Shown here in pieces: positions 1-40,731 of a stretch of 40,731 nucleotides of DNA. Under the pieces are notes generated by a model that made no database searches, was not told the origin of the DNA, and saw only the letters and a program-made list of their open reading frames with translations. The stretch comes from a virus: the IMG/VR virus record IMGVR_UViG_3300050161_000195; one strand, written 5' to 3'. Made by a program: the position numbers and the translations under genes. Every line of letters starts with the position of its first letter. Positions within the stretch are counted from its first letter, which is position 1.

Positions 1-127
1 GGGTCAACGCGATTCCTTTATTGAAGCAAACGGGTCTGAGGATGCAGGTGGTCTCAACTTCAACATCACTCGGCTCATGGCCCAGCGCGATGCCGCGCAA
101 GAGGCGATTAAGCAGGCGGACAATTCT
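1..127. repeat. Terminal overlap, exact copy of 40605..40731 (circular or terminally redundant genome)
   Basis: Base-by-base identity of the first and last 127 nt. The repeat lies inside a coding sequence and preserves the reading frame. Confidence 0.95.
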
Positions 128-7815: not shown

Positions 7816-8658
7816 ATGGAGTCGACTCCTCTTTTCCCTGAAATCGTGAACACCACCCATCCCGCCGCGCCCTACATTGGTGGCAAGCGCCGCCTTTCGC
7901 GAATGCTTTGCCGCGCGATCGACCGCTTGCCACACCATACATATGGCGAAGTGTTTATGGGCATGGGCGGCGTATTCCTGCGGCGGACACGCGTGCCGGC
8001 GGCCGAGTTCATCAATGACTGGTCTGAGGACGTGGCGACGTTCTACCGGATCCTGCAGCGCCACTATGTGGCCTTCCTCGATATGTTGCGCTTCCAGATC
8101 GCGACTCGCTCTGGATTCGAGCGGTTGCTGAAAGTCGATCCCAGTACCCAGACTGATCTGGAGCGCGCTGCCCGGTTCCTGTATCTGCAGCGCCTGGCCT
8201 ATGGTGGGAAGGTATCCGGCCGATCGTTTGGCGTGGATCCGCGCGGATCGAGCGGCTTTGATATGACGAAGCTGCAGCCGCTTCTCGAATCGATCCATGA
8301 ACGGCTTGCGCGGGTGACAATCGAGCGGCTGACCTGGTCGGACTTCCTGACCCGTTATGACACTGCGGCAACGCTGTTCTACCTCGATCCCCCATACTAC
8401 GGCAGTGAAGGGGACTATGGGAAAGACCTGTTTGGCCGCGAGCAGTTCACCCACATGGCGCAGCAGTTGGCCGGCATCGAGGGACGATTTCTGCTCAGCC
8501 TGAACGATCATCCGGCCGTGCGCGCAACCTTCGCTGCTTTCGCCATGGTCGCGGTCGACGTGACCTATACCGTCGGCGGCGGCGACAAGGCCCAACAGAC
8601 GCGCGAACTGGTGATCAGCAACCTCGATCAGGAAAAGCTGGAGAAAGCGCTGGCCTGA
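7816..8658 (+). CDS. DNA N6-adenine methyltransferase, D12 (Dam) class
   Basis: APYIGGKRRL near the N-terminus and DPPY in LFYLDPPYYGSEGDYG. Confidence 0.9.
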   Translation: MESTPLFPEIVNTTHPAAPYIGGKRRLSRMLCRAIDRLPHHTYGEVFMGMGGVFLRRTRVPAAEFINDWSEDVATFYRILQRHYVAFLDMLRFQIATRSGFERLLKVDPSTQTDLERAARFLYLQRLAYGGKVSGRSFGVDPRGSSGFDMTKLQPLLESIHERLARVTIERLTWSDFLTRYDTAATLFYLDPPYYGSEGDYGKDLFGREQFTHMAQQLAGIEGRFLLSLNDHPAVRATFAAFAMVAVDVTYTVGGGDKAQQTRELVISNLDQEKLEKALA

Positions 8659-8659
8659 G

Positions 8660-8851
8660 CATGTTGGTTAGACAACCGCCACAGGACGCCGCAGTTTTTC
8701 ATAGGTCGTTCCGGGAACGTTAGACAATGCAGGGCCTAGCAACTCTGCGGTTGTGCTATTCCCCCCACTCCTGCCAGCATCCCCGGAAAAGCTATGTTTT
8801 CCGGGGGCTTGCGTCGGGGTTAGCCAACTACTCTTTTGATCGGTTAGACAA
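8660..8851. other. Candidate attP region
   Basis: Lower-GC intergenic DNA next to int. GTTAGACAA occurs three times in direct orientation (8667-8675, 8719-8727, 8843-8851). Inverted repeat CGTTCC-G-GGAACG at 8707-8719. Confidence 0.4.
8781..8806. terminator. Perfect 10-bp stem / 6-nt loop hairpin between convergent dam-type and int genes
   Basis: CCCCGGAAAA-gctatg-TTTTCCGGGG. No clean U-tract follows on either strand, so terminator function is tentative. Confidence 0.4.
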
Positions 8852-9931
8852 ATCGAAGTCGATAACGGGCGAAAGCGCCTGTTCGGCCATGCGTCTTTGC
8901 TCCACCGCCGCAGTGTAAACGCCGACCTGTTTGCTGGTGGTCCACCCGCCCAGGCCCATGAGTTCTCGGTCGCTGGCACCCAGCTCCGCAGCGCGGCGCG
9001 TGGTGGCCTTGCGCAGGCCATGGGCGCTGCAGTGAGGCAGGCCGGCTTCGTCGCACCACTGGCGCATCTTGTTGCCCAGACCGGCGCGGGAGAAGGGCTT
9101 GCCGAACTCGGTTACTAGGTATGTCTCTGTCCCGGTGACCTTCGTCGCCTCGATCGCTTCCAGCAGCTGCGGCGCGATCGGCAGCCACATGGTTTTATCG
9201 GTCTTGCGCGCGTGAAATTCAAAGCGGCCGTCAACGATATGGCGGCGGCCGAAGGTGCTGGCATCCCCGCGCCGCTGTGCGGTCCAGAGAAAGATTTCCA
9301 GCGCGAGGCGCGCCATGGTGCCCAGTGCGTGGTGGGCGCGGTATTGCGCGATTTCAGCCTCGGTCCAGGTGTGGAAGCCGCCGCGTGGCACCGAGATCGG
9401 CGCGGCCTGGTCGACCGGGTTGGGCTGCATCAGGCCGAGTAGCTTGATCGCATAGTCGAAGAACGGCTTCAGTTCGCCGCGCAGGTTGTTGGCCGCGCTG
9501 GGCCCACCCCGCTTTCGCCCCTTGGCATCGGCCCAGGGGCGCGCCGCTTTCATCAGCACTGCCTCGATATGGTCGAAGCGAAAGTCGGCTATTCGGTCCT
9601 GGCCGACATCGTTCTCGCTGACGAACTTATCGAGGATGAGCCGCGAGGTCTGCTCGGTCTGGCTGTTCTTCCGGCCGAGGAAGGCGGGCGATGCAAGGTA
9701 GCGGGCGAGAGCCCAGGCGACCGTGCCGGGCGTATGCCGCTGGGCGGGGTCTGCGGGCGCGTTGGCGGCGAAAGCCTCCAGCTCGGCCTTGCCCTCAGGG
9801 CTGTTCGGGTGGTGTTGAAAATAGGCGCTGTGGCCCTTGTGGCGCCAGCGATACCGGCGCTTGCCATGGCGATCGACGAACGATGAGACGTGCGGCGGCA
9901 GCCGTTCCTTACGGGTCTTAGCGTTGGCCAT
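8828..9931 (-). CDS. int: Tyrosine recombinase / phage integrase
   Basis: 367 aa from ATG 9931 (MANAKTRKERLPP...). C-terminal catalytic signature AHGLRK...GGWTTSKQVGVYT (H-x-x-R, Tyr) and upstream TAQRRGD Arg. Confidence 0.92.
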   Translation of the reverse strand: MANAKTRKERLPPHVSSFVDRHGKRRYRWRHKGHSAYFQHHPNSPEGKAELEAFAANAPADPAQRHTPGTVAWALARYLASPAFLGRKNSQTEQTSRLILDKFVSENDVGQDRIADFRFDHIEAVLMKAARPWADAKGRKRGGPSAANNLRGELKPFFDYAIKLLGLMQPNPVDQAAPISVPRGGFHTWTEAEIAQYRAHHALGTMARLALEIFLWTAQRRGDASTFGRRHIVDGRFEFHARKTDKTMWLPIAPQLLEAIEATKVTGTETYLVTEFGKPFSRAGLGNKMRQWCDEAGLPHCSAHGLRKATTRRAAELGASDRELMGLGGWTTSKQVGVYTAAVEQRRMAEQALSPVIDFDLSNRSKE

Positions 9932-10106
9932 GCGGAAGCAGCCGATCGAGCTTGTTGGGGCGGGGCGCCGAATCGGCGCCCGCCGCATATATCACGATCT
10001 CACCCGTCGTCGTGATGGTCACCGTGCCCACGGCGATGCCCGCCGCCTGGCACCCTTTGACCGCGCGGGTGACATCGGCCTGATTGAAGGCGGCCCGGCG
10101 CGTCAT
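9918..10106 (-). CDS. Small protein overlapping the int start; candidate excisionase/RDF
   Basis: 62 aa (MTRRAAFNQADVTRAVKGCQAAGIAVGTVTITTTGEIVIY...). The 3' end overlaps the int ATG by 14 nt. The role is inferred from position only. Confidence 0.4.
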   Translation of the reverse strand: MTRRAAFNQADVTRAVKGCQAAGIAVGTVTITTTGEIVIYAAGADSAPRPNKLDRLLPHGQR

Positions 10107-10354
10107 TCCCAGCCCATCCTCTTGACCGGGCCGTTGCCGCGCCGTTCGTTGCACTTGCGGTGGGCGAGCTTGAGATTGTCGAGGGTTGAGCGGCCGCCGA
10201 GCGAGCGGGGCACGATATGATCGAGCGTGGCGAAATCCGGGTTCGCCCGGTTCTTGAACACCATCGGGGCGTGGCACAGGTGGCAATCATCGCCATCCCG
10301 TTCCCGCAGGAGTTTGCGCTTGCTGCACCGCCGACGGACCGCACGGTCGCCCAT
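10103..10354 (-). CDS. HNH endonuclease
   Basis: CHLCH...DHIVPRSLGGRSTLDNLKLAHRKCNERRGN. Confidence 0.85.
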   Translation of the reverse strand: MGDRAVRRRCSKRKLLRERDGDDCHLCHAPMVFKNRANPDFATLDHIVPRSLGGRSTLDNLKLAHRKCNERRGNGPVKRMGWE

Positions 10355-10956
10355 CAGACCGCCGCCTCATACTTGCCGGCCTCATTCCCCCAGGCGGTCC
10401 ACCCCGCGCGCGGGGTGCGGCTGAAGAGTTCGAGGCGGGTGACATCGCCAAACAGCTGCTCGAGCCCTTCGGCGGCCTGTTCCGGCTTGCGGCTGTGTTC
10501 GCGGGGCGGGGCGATGATGAGCTGGCGCACCGAGTGGCTGCAGACGGGCAGGCCCTTGCCCCGCTTGAACAGCCAGCAGGGTTCCACCTGTTTCCGGGTG
10601 TAATAGCCCATCGAGATCCGGGGCTCGGGAATGTCACCCGTGCGCGGATCGATCACCATGGCATCGACCAGGCGCTGCTTGGCCCAATAGAACAGGTCGG
10701 TCACGAAGCTGAAGCCCCAGGCATCGGCCAGCATGAACATCTGATCGAGATGGCTGCCGATACCCCACAGGGCGAGCACGGCATCATCGGCCGCGATCCG
10801 GCGCACCGGAAGGCTGCGCAGTTCATCCAGCGGCATGGTGCGATAGTGATCCGGCCCGCGCCGCTGGGTGGGCGTGCGGGTGGCGCCGTTGAACATCACC
10901 GTCTGCCACGGCGGATCGGCGTAGATCAGCTGGAAGGGACCGCGGGGCAGGGTCAC
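10354..10956 (-). CDS. MT-A70 family DNA N6-adenine methyltransferase
   Basis: IYADPPWQ (DPPW motif) near the N-terminus. 200 aa. Confidence 0.85.
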   Translation of the reverse strand: MTLPRGPFQLIYADPPWQTVMFNGATRTPTQRRGPDHYRTMPLDELRSLPVRRIAADDAVLALWGIGSHLDQMFMLADAWGFSFVTDLFYWAKQRLVDAMVIDPRTGDIPEPRISMGYYTRKQVEPCWLFKRGKGLPVCSHSVRQLIIAPPREHSRKPEQAAEGLEQLFGDVTRLELFSRTPRAGWTAWGNEAGKYEAAV

Positions 10957-13770: not shown

Positions 13771-14244
13771 TCACGCCGCCAGCCGATCGAATTCGGCATG
13801 GACGGGGGCGAGGGCCAGCAGGGTATCGGCGTGGCACCATTCGCTGGTGAGCGGGCACCAACAGGCAAGATCATGCCCGGCCAGCTGGTGCAGCCTGGTC
13901 ATCACCCGTTCGTGCAGGCGGTGGAGGCCATCGATCTCGGCCGGGTGAAAGCCCATCCGCTCAAGGGTGAGATCGCCGACCCTGCCGGCCAGCCATTCCT
14001 TATGAAGGATGACCGAGCGGGCGTGGTTCACGCCCCGGCCCTGGAAGGGATTGCCCCAGATCGTGGGGCGGCCGACATAGATTGTGCCTTCGGGCAGGAC
14101 ACTGCCCTTGCGGCGGGGCCGCTGGATGCGCTGGGCGCGCGGAACAGGGCCAAGGGTTGAACGCGGGGGCAAAGCCCCCGGCGTTCCGAGATGGCCCAAA
14201 GTGTACTCACACACTGGCCATCTCCACTGCGGCAAGTTCAACAT
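13771..14244 (-). CDS. DUF4326 domain protein
   Basis: GRPTIWGNPF and LACWCPLTSEWCHADTLLALA motifs. The true start is probably internal (GTG overlapping the upstream stop at about 14211), because 14207..14244 overlaps the preceding gene. Confidence 0.8.
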   Translation of the reverse strand: MLNLPQWRWPVCEYTLGHLGTPGALPPRSTLGPVPRAQRIQRPRRKGSVLPEGTIYVGRPTIWGNPFQGRGVNHARSVILHKEWLAGRVGDLTLERMGFHPAEIDGLHRLHERVMTRLHQLAGHDLACWCPLTSEWCHADTLLALAPVHAEFDRLAA

Positions 14245-15298
14245 CGATCAGCTGGAACAGCGTTTCGGCGAAGGCTTTCCAAGCCGCCGCCGCTTCCGCC
14301 GCCCAAGCCGCCGCTTCCGCCGCCCAAGCCGCCGCTTCCGCCGCCGCTTCCGCCGCCCAAGCCGCCGCTTCCGCCGCCCAAGCCGCCGCTTCCGCCGCCG
14401 CTTCCGCCGCCGCTTCCGCCGCCCAAGCCGCCGCTTCCGCCGCCCTAGCCGCCGCTTCCGCCGCCGCTTCCGCCGCCGCTTCCGCCGCCCAAGCCGCCGC
14501 TTCCGCCGCCCTAGCCGCCGCCCTAGCCGCCGCTTCCGCCGCCCTAGCCGCCGCTTCCGCCGCCGCTTCCGCCGCCCAAGCCGCCGCTTCCGCCGCCCTA
14601 GCCGCCGCCCTAGCCGCCGCTTCCGCCGCCCTAGCCGCCGCCTTTGCCTCCTCCAGGCCCGTCCCGGTCTGGAGCGCGGTGCACACCTGATCGCAGGCCG
14701 CCACCACGCCGGGCCAGTATTCCGGCGGATTGTCCTGGTGAACCGCGCTGGCGGCGCTGATGGCCTGCCTAACGCCCGCGATCAGCAGGCCGGTCTGGAT
14801 GCGATCCCAGGCGGCATCGTCCAGGGCGTGCCAGCGGGCGGCGCGGTCGATCAGTTCGCCGCTGAACCACAGCACCTGGTCCTTGGCGATACCGTCATCG
14901 ATCGCGGGGACCAGCGATGCCATCCATGGGGGCATGAGGTCCGCCGGGCAATCGCCCGACCCGTTGATATCCGGCCCGAAGGCGGCGAGGGCGCAGACCA
15001 GTTCGCGGCCCTGTTCATCCTGGGTGCGCCAGGTGTTCTGGGTGATCGTGCCGGCGGCATGATACCCGCGGGCGAGAGCGATGCGATCGGCGATGGTGAG
15101 GGTAGGCGCAGTGGTCGTGTCAGCCATGATCGGCTCCTGTTGGGGGCTGGTTGAGAAGGGGAGGTATTTGCGCCACCAGGGCAGCCGCTTGCGGGCGCGC
15201 CATTCGGCCATCGGCAGCGGCTTTTCCGCCGGGGGCGGCATGGCCGAGCCGGTGTTGAGCGACCGGGCGTGCTGCGCGACGGTGTAGGCGCGGGCCAT
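14207..15298 (-). CDS. Hypothetical protein with C-terminal (E/R/W)-polyalanine repeat region
   Basis: 363 aa if started at ATG 15298, which overlaps the upstream TGA; GC3 stays high from there. An alternative ATG at 15127 has a perfect AGGAG RBS. The track ORF runs to 15640. Confidence 0.65.
   Translation of the reverse strand: MARAYTVAQHARSLNTGSAMPPPAEKPLPMAEWRARKRLPWWRKYLPFSTSPQQEPIMADTTTAPTLTIADRIALARGYHAAGTITQNTWRTQDEQGRELVCALAAFGPDINGSGDCPADLMPPWMASLVPAIDDGIAKDQVLWFSGELIDRAARWHALDDAAWDRIQTGLLIAGVRQAISAASAVHQDNPPEYWPGVVAACDQVCTALQTGTGLEEAKAAARAAEAAARAAARAAEAAAWAAEAAAEAAARAAEAAARAAARAAEAAAWAAEAAAEAAAEAAARAAEAAAWAAEAAAEAAAEAAAWAAEAAAWAAEAAAEAAAWAAEAAAWAAEAAAAWKAFAETLFQLIDVELAAVEMASV
14281..14650. 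repeat. Nested in-frame tandem repeat (12-nt and 9-nt modules; 87-nt higher-order duplication at 14463-14549 / 14550-14636)
   Basis: The array is built only from GCCGCTTCCGCC, GCCCAAGCC, GCCCTAGCC and GCC. Confidence 0.95.
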
Positions 15299-15432
15299 CA
15301 CTCGCAGTGGACCTTGGCGCATTCGTATTTGAACACGGCGTGGTCGATCTGGGTGAGGATGGGCCAGCCCACGATCTGCACGGCGGCGATGATCAGGACG
15401 GCGAGCACGATATCGCGCGGGGAGAGCGCCAT
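15298..15432 (-). CDS. Small membrane protein (44 aa)
   Basis: MALSPRDIVLAVLIIAAVQIVGWPILTQ... AAGGAGG RBS. The ATG overlaps the upstream TAA (TAATG) and its stop overlaps the next ATG. Confidence 0.5.
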   Translation of the reverse strand: MALSPRDIVLAVLIIAAVQIVGWPILTQIDHAVFKYECAKVHCE

Positions 15433-15911
15433 TACGCGGCCTCCTTTTCGGTGCAGGGCACGGTGATCGCCGGGGGCGGGACATCGTGGCGGCCATTGGG
15501 ATCGAAGCGCAGGTGGCGGGCGAGATCGGCGAGGGCGACGGCGGCCGCGCATTGCTCCGGCGTTTCGAGCGGGCCGTGCAGGGCATCGTCGCGCGCCTTG
15601 GCCAGCACCGGGGCCCAGAGGCGGCGGGGGCAGATTTCATCGGCCAGCAGCCCGCGCGCCTCGGCCTCAGTCACGTCCTTGCGGGCATCATTGGGCCAGA
15701 TCTGGACCACGCGGCGGCCGCAGAGGCCATCTTCCAGCTCGGGCAGATCGGCGCCGACCAGGCAGGCGATGGCCAGCCACGGGCGCAGGTGATCGGTGGC
15801 GCGGCGGGCATCCATGAGCCCGCTGCGGACCAGTTCGCGCGCCTTGGCCTGCCGCTGGCGGAATGCCTGGGCGGCGGCGCGGGAGATATCGGGTTCGATG
15901 GTAGGGGACAT
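15432..15911 (-). CDS. Hypothetical protein, first gene of the leftward operon
   Basis: 159 aa. GGAGG RBS. Located just downstream of the putative leftward promoter. Confidence 0.6.
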   Translation of the reverse strand: MSPTIEPDISRAAAQAFRQRQAKARELVRSGLMDARRATDHLRPWLAIACLVGADLPELEDGLCGRRVVQIWPNDARKDVTEAEARGLLADEICPRRLWAPVLAKARDDALHGPLETPEQCAAAVALADLARHLRFDPNGRHDVPPPAITVPCTEKEAA

Positions 15912-15942
15912 GGGTGCCTCCGTCTGTGACGGGGCAGCTTAT

Positions 15943-15992
15943 GGTGTGACAATGCACACCATGTCAATCTAAAAAGTGTGGTATATCACACT
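15943..15992 (-). promoter_or_regulatory. Leftward early promoter with operators O1 (15943-15960) and O2 (15975-15992)
   Basis: GGTGTG-ACAATG-CACACC and AGTGTG-GTATAT-CACACT palindromes, centres 32 bp apart. A minus-strand TTGACA (-35, plus coordinates 15962-15967) lies 1 nt upstream of O1. Confidence 0.6.
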
Positions 15993-16713
15993 ATCCGAAG
16001 AAGCGCTTCCATAGGGAAGGTTTGGGCTGGCGGATCGGTGCGACGAGAGTCGGTCTGATCCGGGCGGCCCCTTCAAGCCTTTCGATCAACTCGGCATCGG
16101 TGAGGATCGGCGCGTTGTATTTGGCCAGAAGTTCGCGGCTGGATCGGCAGAATTCGGCATGCAGTGTGGCGAGGGCCTCTACGGGCATTGCCCGGGTGAC
16201 TTTGCAGGACGGGCAATCAATGGCGCTGTCCGAGGTGATGCCGCCCAGCGGGAGGTTGTATATGGCCCCGCATTCGCAGGTGATCGGGATTATCATCGCC
16301 GAAATTATCATGGCCAGATGATCGGGAGCGGCGGCTTTGGTTGGCGCCGAAGTTGCGGGGGCCGTGAGGGTGGTTCTTTGCGATGGACCAGACCGGCCGT
16401 ATGTCCGGTGGGGGAGATCATCATCCGTAAGGGTCACGTCGAGTACGACGCCAAGGGCGCCGCCGGGGGCGCGGGCGATGTCCTTAATGGTGGCGGTGAC
16501 GCCCCGGCCTTGATCGAATATGGCATCGCGAAGCCAAGATGATCTTGCAATATAGCCGATGGTTTTGCCGCAGGCATTTTCTACGCGCAGCGCTTGGCTG
16601 TCGTAAGGGTTGCCTTCTTCGAAGCATATCCAAGCCCGTTCACCTGGTGATGTGCGACTTATTTCGGTCTGGTAGTTCGTTTCTCCGACTATCCCGACCG
16701 AATATAATTTCAT
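15991..16713 (-). CDS. HIRAN domain protein with C-terminal zinc-ribbon-like CxC...CxxC
   Basis: 240 aa from ATG 16713, which overlaps the repressor stop (ATGA). VGETNYQ...EEGNPYDSQALRV...GKTIGYIARS is the HIRAN signature. ITCECG...CPSCK follows. GC is lower than the surroundings. Confidence 0.8.
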   Translation of the reverse strand: MKLYSVGIVGETNYQTEISRTSPGERAWICFEEGNPYDSQALRVENACGKTIGYIARSSWLRDAIFDQGRGVTATIKDIARAPGGALGVVLDVTLTDDDLPHRTYGRSGPSQRTTLTAPATSAPTKAAAPDHLAMIISAMIIPITCECGAIYNLPLGGITSDSAIDCPSCKVTRAMPVEALATLHAEFCRSSRELLAKYNAPILTDAELIERLEGAARIRPTLVAPIRQPKPSLWKRFFG

Positions 16714-17318
16714 GATGTGCGTCTCGGCTTTTGTCGCACCCATCGGACTGGGGCGGCCCAGGCTACTTCCTGGTCTTCCATATCGGGCGCATTGAGTGAA
16801 CGAAGGGTGTAGCGGCCCGGCATGGTGCCGCGCGCAAATATCTTGAGGAACGTTCCGCCTTCGAGTGTGCGAACGGCGCAATATTCGCCGATTGCATCAG
16901 GGCTGATGCCATCGACCGTGCGATCGACGTAGACGATATCGCCATCCTCGTACTTCGGAAGCATGGAATTCCCGACGACCTGGAGCGCCATAATCTTGCC
17001 GTGCGCACCGGGCGGACGCGGGGCAAAATCATCGCTTTCATGATCGTCGCCGTTGAACAGCACTTCGCCACCCGCGCCGATGCGCCCCGATAGTTTCAAC
17101 TGTGGTTCGCTGATCAGATCATCAATGGTGATATCGAACACCTCGGCCAGGCGTACCAAGGTGCCCACGCGCACGTCGGATCGTTTGGCTTCAAAGATGT
17201 CGCGAATCGCCGTCTCGCCCAGCCCGGCCTTTTTGGCTAGCGGCTTACGCTTGATGTTGTGTTCATCCATCAGGCTTTGCAGCCGCGCCTTGAAGGCCTC
17301 GATGTCGAACTCTGTCAT
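16710..17318 (-). CDS. cI: CI/LexA-type repressor (XRE HTH + S24 peptidase)
   Basis: 202 aa from ATG 17318 (MTEFD...). HTH is KKAGLGETAIRDIFEAKR. S24 Ser is in VVGNSMLP and Lys in TFLKIF. Candidate Ala-Gly cleavage site in RIGAGGE. Confidence 0.9.
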   Translation of the reverse strand: MTEFDIEAFKARLQSLMDEHNIKRKPLAKKAGLGETAIRDIFEAKRSDVRVGTLVRLAEVFDITIDDLISEPQLKLSGRIGAGGEVLFNGDDHESDDFAPRPPGAHGKIMALQVVGNSMLPKYEDGDIVYVDRTVDGISPDAIGEYCAVRTLEGGTFLKIFARGTMPGRYTLRSLNAPDMEDQEVAWAAPVRWVRQKPRRTS

Positions 17319-17395
17319 GTGTGACATTTCACACATTTTTTGCCCTCGCCGACAGTCAGGACGTTTCACACCTTGACGGTGTGCAATATCACACC
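17318..17395. promoter_or_regulatory. Divergent immunity region with operators O3 (17318-17335) and O4 (17378-17395) and the rightward promoter
   Basis: TGTGTG-ACATTT-CACACA and GGTGTG-CAATAT-CACACC. A plus-strand TTGACG (-35, 17373-17378) abuts O4. A degenerate half-site TCACACC lies at 17365-17371. O3 covers the repressor start codons. Confidence 0.65.
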
Positions 17396-17409
17396 TTATG
17401 AGGGCGGGC

Positions 17410-17610
17410 ATGGCACTGCTCGATGACATTGAAGCTTTCCTGGAAGCGAACGCAGATGTGAGCCCGACCGCGCTTGGCGATCGCGCCTTGGGTGACCGCC
17501 ACTTTGTGCGCCAATTGCGCGGCGGTCGCCGGGTATGGCCGGAAACAGAGGCCAAGGTTCGGCAATTCATGGCCGAGCATTGCTCCACCGCAGACCAGGC
17601 GGAGGCCTGA
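17410..17610 (+). CDS. Small early regulator (Cro/CII position)
   Basis: 66 aa from ATG 17410 (GAGGG RBS; alternative ATG at 17398). It is divergent from the repressor. Function is assigned from position only. Confidence 0.55.
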   Translation: MALLDDIEAFLEANADVSPTALGDRALGDRHFVRQLRGGRRVWPETEAKVRQFMAEHCSTADQAEA

Positions 17611-39600: not shown

Positions 39601-40731
39601 ATGGTCGATACCGATGTCAAAACCCTGATGCTCCAGGTCGATGCCTCGATCGAACTGCTGCGCAAGGAACTCGACGGCGGCGCCGGCGTGATGGACCGGT
39701 TTAGCGCCCGGGCCGGCACGATGGCCGATCAGGTGGAACGCGCGATCTCCACCATGGGCAAGAACTTCCCCAACCTCAGCCAGCGCGCCGCCGATGCCGC
39801 CAGCCAGATGGAAAAGGCCTTCAATGACAGCTTCGGCGCGATCCAGCGCATGGCTGATAAGGCGATCACCATGCCCGCGGTGAACGGCGGCGGGCTGGAC
39901 GTGGGCGCCACCGAAATGCGTGCGGCGGCCGATGCCGCCCGCACGCGGGCCGCCGCGCTGGAACAGATCGAGGTGGCTGCCCAGCGCGCGGCGGCGGGCG
40001 AAGGCGTGATGACTGCGGAAACCCGCGCCTATCTTCAGGCCGCACAGGCCGCCCGGATTGAGGCTGAAGCCCACGCCCGCGATCTAATGCGTGAAGCAGG
40101 CGCGCTCGAACGGATCGAAATCGAACTGGGCAAGGCCGGCGCCGCGCAGCAGCTTATGGCTACCCGCGGCGCAGCGCTTCATCAGCAAACCGGCCTGCAG
40201 CGTGCCGGGATGCAGCAGTTGGCGTTCCAGATTTCTGACGTATCGACCCAGTTTTCCATGGGCACGCCGCCCATGCAGATCTTCGCGCAGCAGTCCTCGC
40301 AGGTCATCCAGGCAGTGGGGATGATGACCACGGAGAGCAAGGGGCTGCTCGGCATCCTTGGGAACCCGTGGACGCAAATCGTTGTCGCCGCGACAGTCGT
40401 ACTTGAACCGTTCATCGCCAAGCTATTCGACTCGCAGGATGCTCTGACCGGCATAGGAGACAAGGCTGAACAAGCGATGGAGCGCGTGCGGCGATCGTTG
40501 GCTCAGGTCTCCGCCATTACCGACGCCGCCGATGAAGCTACGAGGAAGAAGGTAGAGGCGATGGCTGAGGTAGCGCGCCTCAACCGCCAGATCACCCAAG
40601 CTCAGGGTCAACGCGATTCCTTTATTGAAGCAAACGGGTCTGAGGATGCAGGTGGTCTCAACTTCAACATCACTCGGCTCATGGCCCAGCGCGATGCCGC
40701 GCAAGAGGCGATTAAGCAGGCGGACAATTCT
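39601..40731 (+). CDS. Tail tape measure protein, 5' portion (continues at nt 128 of the window via the circular junction)
   Basis: ATG 39601 with a GGAG RBS. Open to the window end. GMQQLAFQISDVSTQFSMGTPPMQIFAQQSSQVIQAVG is a typical TMP core segment. The ORF is absent from the track only because it has no stop inside the window. Confidence 0.85.
   Translation, partial: MVDTDVKTLMLQVDASIELLRKELDGGAGVMDRFSARAGTMADQVERAISTMGKNFPNLSQRAADAASQMEKAFNDSFGAIQRMADKAITMPAVNGGGLDVGATEMRAAADAARTRAAALEQIEVAAQRAAAGEGVMTAETRAYLQAAQAARIEAEAHARDLMREAGALERIEIELGKAGAAQQLMATRGAALHQQTGLQRAGMQQLAFQISDVSTQFSMGTPPMQIFAQQSSQVIQAVGMMTTESKGLLGILGNPWTQIVVAATVVLEPFIAKLFDSQDALTGIGDKAEQAMERVRRSLAQVSAITDAADEATRKKVEAMAEVARLNRQITQAQGQRDSFIEANGSEDAGGLNFNITRLMAQRDAAQEAIKQADNS
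40605..40731. repeat. Terminal overlap, exact copy of 1..127
   Basis: See the first feature. Confidence 0.95.

What the first reader, a model, noticed from the sequence alone, without database searches (positions are those of the whole stretch)
15991..17318. HIRAN-domain / zinc-ribbon gene translationally coupled to the CI-type repressor: candidate lysogen-expressed defence or exclusion module
The repressor stop and the next ATG overlap as ATGA at 16710-16713, so the 240-aa protein is made from the repressor transcript. This is the position occupied by rexAB in lambda. Its N-terminus carries a clear HIRAN signature (VGETNYQ, EEGNPYDSQALRV, GKTIGYIARS). HIRAN is a domain known to bind 3' DNA ends. 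It is followed by a Pro/Thr/Ala linker and a CxC...CxxC module. GC drops to roughly 50% around 16540-16713, against about 65% elsewhere, which suggests a recently acquired moron. A stand-alone HIRAN protein expressed with a prophage repressor is not a described immunity system as far as I know.
Basis: partly seen in the sequence, partly recalled or inferred. Interest (0 to 1): 0.7.

Follow-up and report, generated by a model that had tools for sequence, protein, structure and literature searches.

The report
Membrane-tethered HIRAN protein coupled to phage repressor
A temperate phage makes, from the same message as its CI-type repressor, a protein that joins a DNA-3'-end-binding HIRAN domain to a zinc ribbon and a MinD-like membrane-binding tail; relatives keep such membrane-anchored HIRAN genes next to their repressors, so this is probably a protective function of the lysogen, though what it does is untested.

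Summary
The repressor gene (17318-16710, minus strand; HTH plus Peptidase_S24) ends in an ATGA that overlaps the start of a 240-aa ORF (16713-15991). Pfam, a profile search of the PDB, and AlphaFold plus Foldseek all identify the N-terminus of this ORF as a HIRAN domain.

New findings:
1. Two pairs of GTGTG-N6-CACAC operators and mirror-image promoters bracket the two-gene block. This is the layout of rexAB in lambda.
2. Ten distinct related loci keep this bracket. All five co-directional ones keep the NTGA overlap. The other five carry a short HIRAN gene convergent with the repressor.
3. HIRAN genes also follow at least two other repressor types.
4. The protein ends in a basic amphipathic tail (SLWKRFFG) like the MinD membrane-targeting sequence. 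Of 165 family representatives, 42 have such a tail and 40 have a transmembrane helix instead.
5. In more distant relatives, the slot after the repressor holds other small envelope or conflict genes, or nothing. The HIRAN gene is therefore accessory.

Best reading: a lysogen-expressed protein on the cytoplasmic face of the membrane that binds DNA 3' ends, most likely to exclude or sense incoming DNA. The function is inferred, not shown.

The only precedent found is pneumococcal thaL, which has been named but not studied. I rate this a new variant of a known kind, interest about 0.6.

The parts
16710..17318 (-). CI/LexA-type repressor gene (202 aa): N-terminal HTH, C-terminal Peptidase_S24 self-cleaving domain
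   Evidence: Pfam Peptidase_S24 9.7e-11, HTH_26 1.2e-8, HTH_3 2.4e-7. PHROG 4 transcriptional repressor 2.4e-23. The Ala-Gly site, the Ser of GDSM/GNSM and the Lys are invariant in 10 homologues.
16710..16713 (-). ATGA overlap of the repressor stop and the HIRAN start (translational coupling)
   Evidence: Sequence. The same 4-nt NTGA overlap is found in L001 (GTGA), L004 (GTGA), L015 (ATGA) and L018 (TTGA).
15991..16713 (-). HIRAN / zinc-ribbon / amphipathic-tail gene (240 aa plus stop)
16399..16713 (-). HIRAN domain, aa 1-105
   Evidence: Pfam PF08797 25.8 bits. pLDDT above 90. Foldseek top hits are HLTF HIRAN 4xzg/6kcs/4s0n and lp_0118 3k2y. N35-P36-Y37-D38 aligns with HLTF N91-P92-Y93-D94.
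16321..16398 (-). Pro/Thr/Ala-rich flexible linker, aa 106-131
   Evidence: Residues 112-127 have pLDDT below 50. Length and sequence vary among homologues.
16039..16320 (-). C-terminal domain, aa 132-225: CxC...CxxC zinc ribbon (C146, C148, C167, C170) followed by two helices
   Evidence: The cysteines are invariant in 7 homologues. The domain model has pLDDT 86.6 and pTM 0.72. No significant PDB fold match; the best is the ZifS zinc finger at E 0.46.
15994..16023 (-). C-terminal basic amphipathic tail KPSLWKRFFG: putative MinD-like membrane-targeting sequence
   Evidence: Predicted terminal helix 234-239. A tail motif of two hydrophobic residues, any two residues, then two hydrophobic residues occurs in 42 of 63 non-TM family members with a C-terminal extension. 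Shuffles give a mean of 0.7 and unrelated ORFs 2%. The E. coli MinD C-terminus is KKGFLKRLFGG.
15976..15991 (.). Operator-like palindrome O_L2, GTGTGGTATATCACAC, abutting the HIRAN stop codon
   Evidence: four exact matches in the window, 0.6 expected. Conserved position in 10 loci. It is also the stem of a weak hairpin followed by T5 (-8.1 kcal/mol, z -1.6).
15944..15959 (.). Operator-like palindrome O_L1, lying in the spacer of the leftward early promoter
15938..15967 (-). PL-like leftward early promoter TTGACA-18 nt-CATAAG, with O_L1 between the hexamers
   Evidence: Read from the sequence. The same TTGAC[AG]-operator-TA... layout is found in L001, L004, L015, L018 and, on the other strand, in the convergent loci. 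Inferred, not measured.
17319..17334 (.). Operator-like palindrome directly upstream of the repressor ATG
17379..17394 (.). Operator-like palindrome in the spacer of the rightward early promoter
17373..17402 (+). PR-like rightward early promoter TTGACG-18 nt-TATGAG, with the operator between the hexamers
   Evidence: Read from the sequence. It mirrors the PL-like promoter. Inferred.
17410..17610 (+). First rightward ORF (cro position), about 66 aa, no family match
   Evidence: No PHROG or Pfam hit.

Best explanation
Anatomy (shown by sequence and comparison). The window is a complete temperate phage genome. Its immunity region has the lambda layout: leftward promoter and operator pair, then [accessory gene, repressor], then operator pair and rightward promoter. 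The repressor is a LexA/CI-type self-cleaving protein.

The accessory gene starts in a conserved 4-nt overlap with the repressor stop. It is therefore made whenever the repressor is made, including in lysogens.

Its product has four parts:
1. A HIRAN domain with the 3'-end pocket residues conserved.
2. A flexible linker.
3. A zinc-ribbon plus helical domain with no known fold relative.
4. A short basic amphipathic C-terminal helix of the MinD membrane-targeting type.

Across the family the anchor varies (amphipathic tail, tail-anchor TM helix, or N-terminal TM helix) while the HIRAN domain stays on the cytoplasmic side.

Mechanism (inferred). The protein sits on the inner face of the cytoplasmic membrane. 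There it binds free DNA 3' ends, that is, DNA entering the cell from a superinfecting phage or by another import route. This blocks circularisation, priming or further entry of that DNA, which amounts to superinfection exclusion at the point of DNA entry.

A single MinD-type tail binds membrane weakly. Binding is therefore probably strengthened when several copies gather, perhaps through the zinc-ribbon domain or on DNA.
For: - Gene, overlap and domains.
- HLTF HIRAN binds the 3'-OH end of ssDNA, and the N90A/N91A mutant disrupts this (PMC11237066). Y72 and Y93 border the binding cavity (PMC4666394). Window N35-P36-Y37-D38 aligns with HLTF N91-D94, and N35, P36 and D38 are invariant or nearly so in the family.
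- Operators and promoters bracket the two-gene block in the window and in all 10 distinct related loci.
- The NTGA overlap is conserved in 5 of 5 co-directional loci.
- HIRAN lies directly downstream of other repressor types: L013 and L088 (a different S24 family), and L019, L023, L024 and L089 (HTH only).
- Membrane anchoring among 165 family proteins: 42 MinD-like tails, 34 C-terminal TM helices, 6 N-terminal TM helices. The tail motif occurs in 2% of control ORFs, and shuffles reach at most 5 of 63.
- Topology: 21 of 33 C-terminal TM forms are tail-anchored, and N-terminal TM forms have basic residues after the helix, so the HIRAN domain is cytoplasmic.
- MinD tail sequence verified. The MinD MTS is a weak, transplantable amphipathic helix (PMC8155659).
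- Accessory nature: relatives with homologous repressors carry other small cargo in this slot (signal-peptide, lipoprotein or TM proteins, a Rap1a immunity protein, a PemK toxin) or nothing.
Against: - No experiment or expression data exist. No homology to any validated exclusion or defence protein was found: PADLOC gives only a weak HIRAN-only hit.
- The HIRAN Pfam score is only just above threshold. DNA-end binding is extrapolated from a eukaryotic homologue with about 20% identity.
- 62 of 165 family members have no recognisable anchor; in these the HIRAN domain is at the extreme C-terminus.
- The window tail is short (8-9 residues, hydrophobic moment 0.54-0.61) and has low pLDDT, so it could instead be a protein-binding peptide.
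- In half of the related loci the HIRAN gene is convergent with the repressor and has its own promoter next to the operators. Expression in lysogens is not certain for those.
- The near-exclusive placement beside the repressor would also fit a role in the lysis-lysogeny decision.
- The hairpin after the gene is weak and not conserved, so how repressor transcripts stop before the PL operon is unclear.
Confidence: 0.42

Rival explanations
1. Modulator of the lysogeny switch or of induction. The membrane-bound HIRAN protein senses or sequesters ssDNA 3' ends arising from DNA damage or from DNA imported by competence or gene-transfer-agent uptake. It thereby tunes RecA-dependent cleavage of the adjacent S24 repressor or the timing of induction, for example to escape deletion of the prophage by recombination.
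For: HIRAN genes sit beside the repressor in almost every context examined, across several repressor families. The partner repressor is RecA/ssDNA-responsive, with its AG site and Ser/Lys dyad intact. In pneumococcal prophages, other membrane proteins of the lysogeny module (SzaL, SpaL) change prophage activation in response to competence signals. One such module carries thaL, a transmembrane HIRAN protein (PMC12637031).
Against: Relatives with homologous repressors and operators have no HIRAN gene, and one (L046) has no gene at all in the slot. The switch therefore works without it. Nothing shows an interaction with RecA or the repressor. ThaL itself was not tested in that paper.
Confidence: 0.2
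2. Rex-like abortive infection in one polypeptide. The HIRAN and zinc-ribbon domains detect DNA ends or replication/recombination intermediates of an infecting phage. Clustering on that DNA drives the amphipathic tails or TM helices to disturb the membrane, which stops growth of the infected cell.
For: The gene has the same position and co-expression as lambda rexAB. It combines a nucleic-acid sensor with a membrane-active element. Neighbouring slots in relatives hold a toxin (PemK).
Against: There is no homology to RexA/RexB or to any known membrane effector. A 9-residue tail or a single tail-anchor helix is a weak candidate for a pore. The gene is constitutively co-expressed with the repressor and has no evident antitoxin or control.
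Confidence: 0.15
3. A phage DNA-metabolism factor used by the phage itself. It would tether or protect the 3' ends of the phage genome at the membrane during injection, replication or packaging, comparable to membrane-anchored phage DNA-organising proteins.
For: HIRAN is thought to derive from the replication apparatus of tailed phages (PMC3417536). HIRAN proteins occur in virulent phages. The repressor transcript is also made early in infection.
Against: The gene lies inside the immunity region and is coupled to the repressor, not in the replication operon. It is missing from close relatives with the same replication genes. The virulent-phage HIRAN proteins are not close relatives: tblastn with the window protein found nothing in 50,697 phage records.
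Confidence: 0.1
4. A HIRAN antitoxin or partner of a HipA-like kinase, i.e. the candidate defence system PDC-M03.
For: Weak PADLOC hits to PDC-M03B (best 5.4e-5). HIRAN proteins paired with HipA-like kinases are predicted antitoxins or defence genes (PMC11706625, PMC13245101).
Against: The hit covers only 44 residues of the HIRAN core, out of a 245-position profile. No HipA-like kinase is adjacent in the window or in any related locus.
Confidence: 0.02

Closest known systems
[quoted passage not shown]
   Same: A HIRAN-domain protein with a membrane anchor, encoded in the lysogeny module of a temperate phage that uses a C1-type repressor. Its function is unknown.
   Different: ThaL is described as transmembrane, whereas the window protein has no conserved TM helix. 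Instead it has a MinD-like amphipathic tail plus an extra zinc-ribbon/helical domain, and it is translationally coupled to the repressor. ThaL was only named in that paper, not studied.
Lambda rexA-rexB (immunity-region exclusion genes co-transcribed with cI)
   Same: Position between cI and OL/PL, same orientation as cI, expressed with the repressor, and a link to the membrane. The slot is variable among related phages.
   Different: No sequence or fold similarity. One protein rather than a sensor plus an ion-channel pair. An exclusion phenotype is not shown.
HLTF/Rad5 HIRAN domain (PF08797), with bacterial lp_0118 (PDB 3k2y)
   Same: Same fold (Foldseek probability 1.0) and a conserved NPYD pocket that in HLTF holds the 3'-OH end of ssDNA.
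   Different: About 20% identity. Here the domain is not fused to a SNF2 motor or RING domain but to a zinc ribbon and a membrane tail. Prokaryotic HIRAN domains are uncharacterised (PMC11090510).
MinD/FtsA-type C-terminal membrane-targeting sequence
   Same: Located at the extreme C-terminus. Short basic amphipathic helix with two hydrophobic residues, any two residues, then two hydrophobic residues: compare P0016 ...DFLKRLFR and window ...SLWKRFFG with E. coli MinD ...GFLKRLFGG.
   Different: It is attached to a DNA-binding protein, not an ATPase. Membrane binding is untested. The window tail is at the short, weak end of the range.
PDC-M03 (HipA-like kinase plus HIRAN protein, PADLOC candidate system)
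   Same: Contains a stand-alone bacterial HIRAN protein located in mobile elements.
   Different: No kinase partner here. The match is limited to the HIRAN core. The architecture and context differ.

Membership tests
HIRAN domain (Pfam PF08797) | Match to the family HMM above the curated gathering score | tested here: met
   25.8 bits against a cut-off of 24.7, aa 12-58, profile positions 11-57 of 96. This is marginal and partial. The family profile against PDB sequences gives lp_0118 at 8e-6 and HLTF HIRAN at 1.5e-4.
HIRAN domain (Pfam PF08797) | HIRAN fold (small beta-barrel flanked by helices) | tested here: met
   In the AF2 model, aa 1-105 have pLDDT above 90. The Foldseek top 17 PDB hits are all HLTF HIRAN or lp_0118, E from 7e-5 to 4e-3, probability 1.0, target TM 0.47-0.62.
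HIRAN domain (Pfam PF08797) | Conserved 3'-end pocket residues (HLTF N90/N91, Y93, D94; Y72) | tested here: met
   Window N35-P36-Y37-D38 aligns with HLTF N91-P92-Y93-D94. N35 and P36 are invariant and D38 nearly invariant in 22 sequences. Y14 lies in the VGETNYQ loop, and its equivalence to HLTF Y72 is by eye only. Residue roles are from PMC4666394 and PMC11237066; the role of D94 is from my own knowledge.
HIRAN domain (Pfam PF08797) | Binding of free 3'-OH DNA ends | not testable with these tools
   Needs EMSA or fluorescence anisotropy with DNA that is 3'-OH, 3'-phosphate or 5'-ended.
CI/LexA-type S24 repressor (upstream gene) | HTH DNA-binding domain plus Peptidase_S24 domain with an Ala-Gly site and a Ser/Lys dyad | tested here: met
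   Pfam hits are above their cut-offs. The A-G in GAGG, the Ser in G(D/N)SM and the Lys in (L/V)K are invariant in 10 homologues.
CI/LexA-type S24 repressor (upstream gene) | Cognate operators overlapping divergent early promoters | tested here: met
   Four exact GTGTG-N6-CACAC palindromes occur only in the two control regions (4 found, 0.6 expected). The same layout is found in 10 loci. Repressor binding itself was not tested.
Lambda RexAB-type immunity-region exclusion module | Gene(s) between cI and OL/PL, same strand as cI, expressed with cI | tested here: met
   Position and the 4-nt overlap are shown by the sequence. Transcription in lysogens was not measured.
Lambda RexAB-type immunity-region exclusion module | Homology to RexA/RexB or a two-component sensor plus ion-channel organisation | tested here: not met
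   There is no Rex hit in PADLOC, Pfam, NCBIfam or PHROGs. It is a single gene.
Lambda RexAB-type immunity-region exclusion module | Excludes superinfecting phages | not testable with these tools
   Needs plating assays.
ThaL-like membrane-anchored HIRAN proteins of lysogeny modules | HIRAN domain protein encoded in the lysogeny module beside a C1-type regulator | tested here: met
   The definition is taken from PMC12637031.
ThaL-like membrane-anchored HIRAN proteins of lysogeny modules | Transmembrane segment | tested here: not met
   The only hydrophobic stretch (LAMIISAMIIPITCECGAI, Kyte-Doolittle 2.0) includes the CxC of the zinc ribbon. It is modelled as a helix plus strand and is not hydrophobic in homologues P0003-P0007. 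The window protein has an amphipathic tail instead. 40 of 165 relatives do have TM helices.
ThaL-like membrane-anchored HIRAN proteins of lysogeny modules | Sequence homology to pneumococcal ThaL | not tested
tblastn of the window protein and of the family consensus against GenBank phages found no streptococcal hit.
MinD-type C-terminal membrane-targeting sequence | Extreme C-terminal short basic amphipathic helix | tested here: met
   The window tail SLWKRFFG is modelled as a helix at 234-239, with hydrophobic moment 0.61 against 0.48 for the MinD tail. The motif occurs in 42 of 63 eligible relatives, against 2% of control ORFs. MinD sequence verified.
MinD-type C-terminal membrane-targeting sequence | Confers membrane localisation | not testable with these tools
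   Needs GFP-fusion imaging or liposome co-sedimentation.
PDC-M03 (HipA + HIRAN) | Adjacent HipA-like kinase (PDC-M03A) | tested here: not met
   No kinase is found among the neighbours in the window or in related loci. The PDC-M03B hit is limited to 44 residues.

The most novel reading that the evidence does not exclude
Membrane-anchored HIRAN proteins are a widespread, unrecognised class of lysogeny-module proteins: at least 800 clusters at 50% identity, about half with a recognisable anchor. They would patrol the inner face of the membrane for free DNA 3' ends. This would be a one-protein system that intercepts DNA as it enters the cell, whether a superinfecting phage genome or ssDNA imported 3'-end-first by competence or gene-transfer-agent uptake. 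It would protect the lysogen from rival phages, or protect the prophage from being deleted by recombination. This would also give prokaryotic HIRAN domains their first function.
Probability: 0.3. Interest if true: 0.78.

Novelty: new variant of a known kind. Interest (0 to 1): 0.6.

Why it matters
Prokaryotic HIRAN domains have no known function (PMC11090510). This locus gives a concrete, testable setting for one. The gene is small and co-translated with a phage repressor. It is kept inside the immunity region through gene inversion and across several repressor families. Its domain logic suggests capture of DNA ends at the membrane.

If it excludes incoming DNA, it would be a new mechanistic type of superinfection exclusion: a cytoplasmic-face binder of DNA ends rather than an envelope block or an abortive-infection channel. 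It would also explain why HIRAN genes recur in the lysogeny modules of unrelated bacteria, including pneumococcal thaL.

If it instead tunes induction, it would link sensing of DNA ends at the membrane to the lysis-lysogeny switch.

Either result also bears on the idea that the eukaryotic HLTF/Rad5 HIRAN domain came from phages.

Tried and rejected
- tblastn of the protein, and of the family consensus, against 50,697 GenBank phage records found no close relative. A query with the lp_0118 HIRAN core found only HIRAN genes of virulent Xanthomonas and Pseudomonas phages. These say nothing about lysogeny.
- NCBIfam gave no hit. PADLOC gave only weak HIRAN-core hits to PDC-M03B, rejected because the HipA partner is absent.
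- Foldseek of the separately modelled C-terminal domain gave no significant match (best E 0.46), so that domain stays unassigned.
- The hydrophobic stretch at aa 133-151 was considered as a TM helix and rejected. It contains the CxC motif, is modelled as part of the zinc-ribbon domain, and is not conserved as hydrophobic.
- The C-terminal tail was considered as a beta-clamp-binding or PIP-like peptide, partly because some relatives encode their own beta clamp. This was rejected as less likely. There is no conserved Gln or QLxLF pattern, and paralogues replace the tail with true TM helices.
- The hairpin plus T-run after the stop codon was considered as a terminator. It is weak (-8.1 kcal/mol, z -1.6) and the T-run is not conserved in relatives. 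It is better read as an operator.
- The internal sigma-70-like match at 16316-16289 is what chance predicts (1 found, 0.8 expected).
- The GC dip was rejected as evidence for recent acquisition of this gene alone, because the repressor has the same GC.
- Literature searches for HIRAN together with superinfection exclusion returned nothing relevant.
Full report
**1. The observation**

On the minus strand, a 202-aa ORF (17318-16710) is followed by a 240-aa ORF (16713-15991). The TGA of the first and the ATG of the second overlap as ATGA at 16710-16713.

The first protein is a CI/LexA-type repressor. Pfam gives Peptidase_S24 at 9.7e-11, HTH_26 at 1.2e-8 and HTH_3 at 2.4e-7. PHROG 4 'transcriptional repressor' scores 2.4e-23. 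In an alignment of ten homologues, the Ala-Gly cleavage site, the catalytic Ser and the Lys are invariant.

The second protein matches Pfam HIRAN just above threshold: 25.8 against 24.7 bits, aa 12-58. It also matches PHROG 27141, of unknown function, at 3.5e-12. A profile of 22 family members hits the PDB sequences of lp_0118 (8e-6) and the HLTF HIRAN domain (1.5e-4), with the NPYD motif aligned.

An AlphaFold2 model has mean pLDDT 87 and shows:
- a confident domain at aa 1-105;
- a disordered linker at aa 112-127;
- a second confident domain at aa 132-225;
- a short terminal helix at aa 234-239.

The 17 best Foldseek matches in the PDB are all HLTF HIRAN or lp_0118 (E from 7e-5, probability 1.0). 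The four cysteines of the CxC...CxxC motif are invariant in the seven full-length homologues.

The GC of 16540-16713 is 48.9% against 65.4% for the window. However, the repressor (58.5%) and the HIRAN gene (58.8%) have the same GC. The low GC therefore marks the immunity region as a whole.

**2. The setting**

The window is a complete temperate phage genome assembled as a circle: its first and last 127 bases are identical. It encodes:
- tail, lysis and methylase genes, and an integrase at 8828-9988;
- a leftward early operon with an MT-A70-like methylase, a ParB-like protein and a DUF4326 protein;
- the immunity region;
- a rightward early operon with primase and helicase-primase;
- terminase, portal and capsid genes.

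Four exact GTGTG-N6-CACAC palindromes occur in the window (0.6 expected by chance), and only in two places. Two lie just after the HIRAN stop (15944-59 and 15976-91). Two lie just upstream of the repressor start (17319-34 and 17379-94).

In each pair, one palindrome sits in the 18-nt spacer of an outward-facing promoter-like site. These are TTGACA-18-CATAAG leftward at 15967-15938 and TTGACG-18-TATGAG rightward at 17373-17402, both read.

This is the lambda plan: PL/OL, then the accessory gene and cI, then OR/PR and cro. The HIRAN gene occupies the rexAB position.

**3. Relatives**

The family is small at close range. A word-indexed search of 5.8 billion proteins gave 22 hits. An exhaustive profile search of 1.84 billion representatives gave 813 clusters at E below 1e-3. 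Only about eight of these have the full HIRAN, zinc-ribbon and tail architecture.

Named genomes with relatives are sphingomonads: Sphingomonas laterariae, Sphingobium bisphenolivorans and a Sphingomonadaceae MAG.

In ten distinct loci, a repressor 46-79% identical to this one lies next to a HIRAN gene:
- In five (window, L001, L004, L015, L018), the long form follows the repressor on the same strand. The 4-nt overlap is kept as ATGA, GTGA, GTGA, ATGA and TTGA.
- In the other five (L005, L009, L010, L012, L016), a short form (HIRAN, linker and tail, 133-146 aa) is convergent with the repressor.

In all ten, the same two operator pairs bracket the two-gene block. The leftward promoter layout is also conserved. 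In the convergent loci, a TTG-type -35 element for the HIRAN gene lies 4-6 nt beyond the outer operator and is not covered by it. That would allow expression in a lysogen, but this is inference.

HIRAN genes of this family also follow other repressors:
- a different S24 family (L013, L088; 23% identity to this repressor);
- HTH-only proteins (L019, L023, L024, L089).

Exceptions are a mobilisable island (L006) and a locus with a staphylococcal-nuclease-like neighbour (L022).

**4. The slot is accessory**

I searched viral contigs with the repressor alignment and obtained 56 loci. HIRAN is present only beside the closest repressors. It is absent from L036, whose repressor is 58% identical and which has the same operators. 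It is also absent from all relatives at 44-50% identity.

In those loci, the position just after the repressor holds one of the following:
- small proteins with signal peptides, lipoboxes or TM helices;
- a Rap1a type VI immunity protein (L060, 3e-17);
- a PemK/MazF toxin (L062, 1e-13);
- nothing (L046).

This is how a moron slot for lysogen-expressed conflict genes behaves. It also shows that the switch does not need the HIRAN protein.

**5. The membrane clue**

All full-length and short forms end in a basic amphipathic peptide. Examples are window ...PSLWKRFFG, P0016 ...DFLKRLFR, P0010 ...RKIFKSIFK and P0018 ...GWFSRLFGRE. The C-terminus of E. coli MinD reads ...KKGFLKRLFGG. That sequence is a known transplantable amphipathic membrane-targeting helix, and one copy binds weakly (PMC8155659).

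The 165 family proteins divide as follows:
- 42 have a basic tail with two hydrophobic residues, any two residues, then two hydrophobic residues. Control ORFs show this in 2% of cases, and shuffled tails give a mean of 0.7 and a maximum of 5 out of 63.
- 34 have a C-terminal TM helix.
- 6 have an N-terminal TM helix.
- 62 end with the HIRAN domain and have no recognisable anchor.

Most C-terminal TM forms are tail-anchored (9 or fewer residues after the helix in 21 of 33). N-terminal TM forms have basic residues after the helix. The HIRAN domain is therefore on the cytoplasmic side in both. Three different solutions to the same problem argue that this HIRAN clade often works at the inner face of the membrane.

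**6. Mechanism**

Shown by sequence and comparison: the domain architecture, the coupling to the repressor, the position inside the immunity region, the recurrence, and the accessory nature.

Established for the homologous domain: HLTF HIRAN binds the 3'-OH end of single-stranded DNA, and the N90A/N91A mutant disrupts this (PMC11237066). Y72 and Y93 line the binding cavity (PMC4666394). The equivalents of N91, P92 and D94 are invariant or nearly so here.

Inferred: the protein is held at the membrane, perhaps only when several copies gather. It binds free DNA 3' ends appearing there, meaning entering foreign DNA, and so blocks its establishment. I put this at about 0.4.

Rivals:
- a modulator of induction or lysogeny (0.2), which the constant proximity to repressors and the pneumococcal SzaL/SpaL precedent make plausible, although loci lacking the gene count against it;
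- a Rex-like abortive-infection sensor and effector (0.15);
- a factor for the phage's own DNA (0.1);
- a HipA-partner HIRAN protein (0.02, because the kinase is absent).

**7. Comparison with what is known**

[quoted passage not shown] It lies in the lysogeny module of pneumococcal prophage phiRMV8, which uses a C1-type regulator. It is named once and was not studied (PMC12637031).

A 2024 paper calls prokaryotic HIRAN domains uncharacterised (PMC11090510). HIRAN has been proposed to derive from the phage replication apparatus (PMC3417536).

The window protein differs from ThaL as described. It has an amphipathic tail instead of a TM helix, an extra zinc-ribbon/helical domain with no fold relative, and translational coupling to the repressor. 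It resembles lambda rexAB in position and expression only.

**8. Verdict**

I rate it a new variant of a known kind, namely a lysogeny-module accessory gene of the membrane-anchored HIRAN type. Interest is 0.6, because it gives an uncharacterised but widespread domain class a specific and easily tested hypothesis.

Noticed in passing
window 1-127 and 40605-40731: The two ends of the window are an exact 127-bp direct repeat. The window is therefore a circular assembly of a complete phage genome of about 40.6 kb, not necessarily an integrated prophage. Tail genes at the left end continue from the structural genes at the right end.
   Followed up: partly
window 14207-15640 (-), repeats 14284-14642: A 477-aa ORF in the leftward early operon contains a 54/66-nt tandem array (GC about 0.82). 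The array encodes Ala/Glu/Trp-rich repeats (EAAAWAAEAAA...). There is no Pfam or PHROG match.
   Followed up: partly
window 17316-17334 and 17396-17412: The repressor ATG (17318) directly abuts an operator. The first rightward ORF probably starts at ATG 17410, about 8 nt after the PR-like -10 element. Both messages may be leaderless, as lambda cI is from PRM.
   Followed up: no
L001-L003, 2017-3267: Related phages with the same repressor-HIRAN module carry their own DNA polymerase III beta-clamp gene in the early operon that also encodes the DnaG-type primase.
   Followed up: no
L060 3537-3893; L062 1670-2095; L061 3627-4016; L044 3561-4220: In relatives lacking HIRAN, the gene directly after the homologous repressor is a Rap1a type VI secretion immunity protein (L060), a PemK/MazF toxin (L062), a lipoprotein (L061) or a secreted protein (L044). 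In L044, L060 and L061 it overlaps the repressor stop.
   Followed up: partly
L019 4632-5396; L020 2914-3735: Some family members have two HIRAN domains in tandem. One ends in a MinD-like tail (L019) and the other in a TM helix (L020). Many '100-aa N-terminal domain plus HIRAN' proteins may be degenerate tandems.
   Followed up: no
L006-L008, 5001-5741: One family member (N-terminal domain, HIRAN, amphipathic tail) lies in an integrative mobilisable element with an integrase, AlpA, TraD and a MobA/MobL relaxase rather than in a phage. The family is therefore not restricted to phage immunity regions.
   Followed up: no
L022 4645-5321: A HIRAN-only gene lies immediately downstream of a staphylococcal-nuclease-like gene (SNase, 5.9e-7). 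This is a possible pairing of a nuclease with an end-binding protein.
   Followed up: no
window 7816-8658 and 10354-10956: The phage carries two DNA methyltransferase genes: a D12-class Dam-like one beside the integrase and an MT-A70-like one in the leftward early operon.
   Followed up: no
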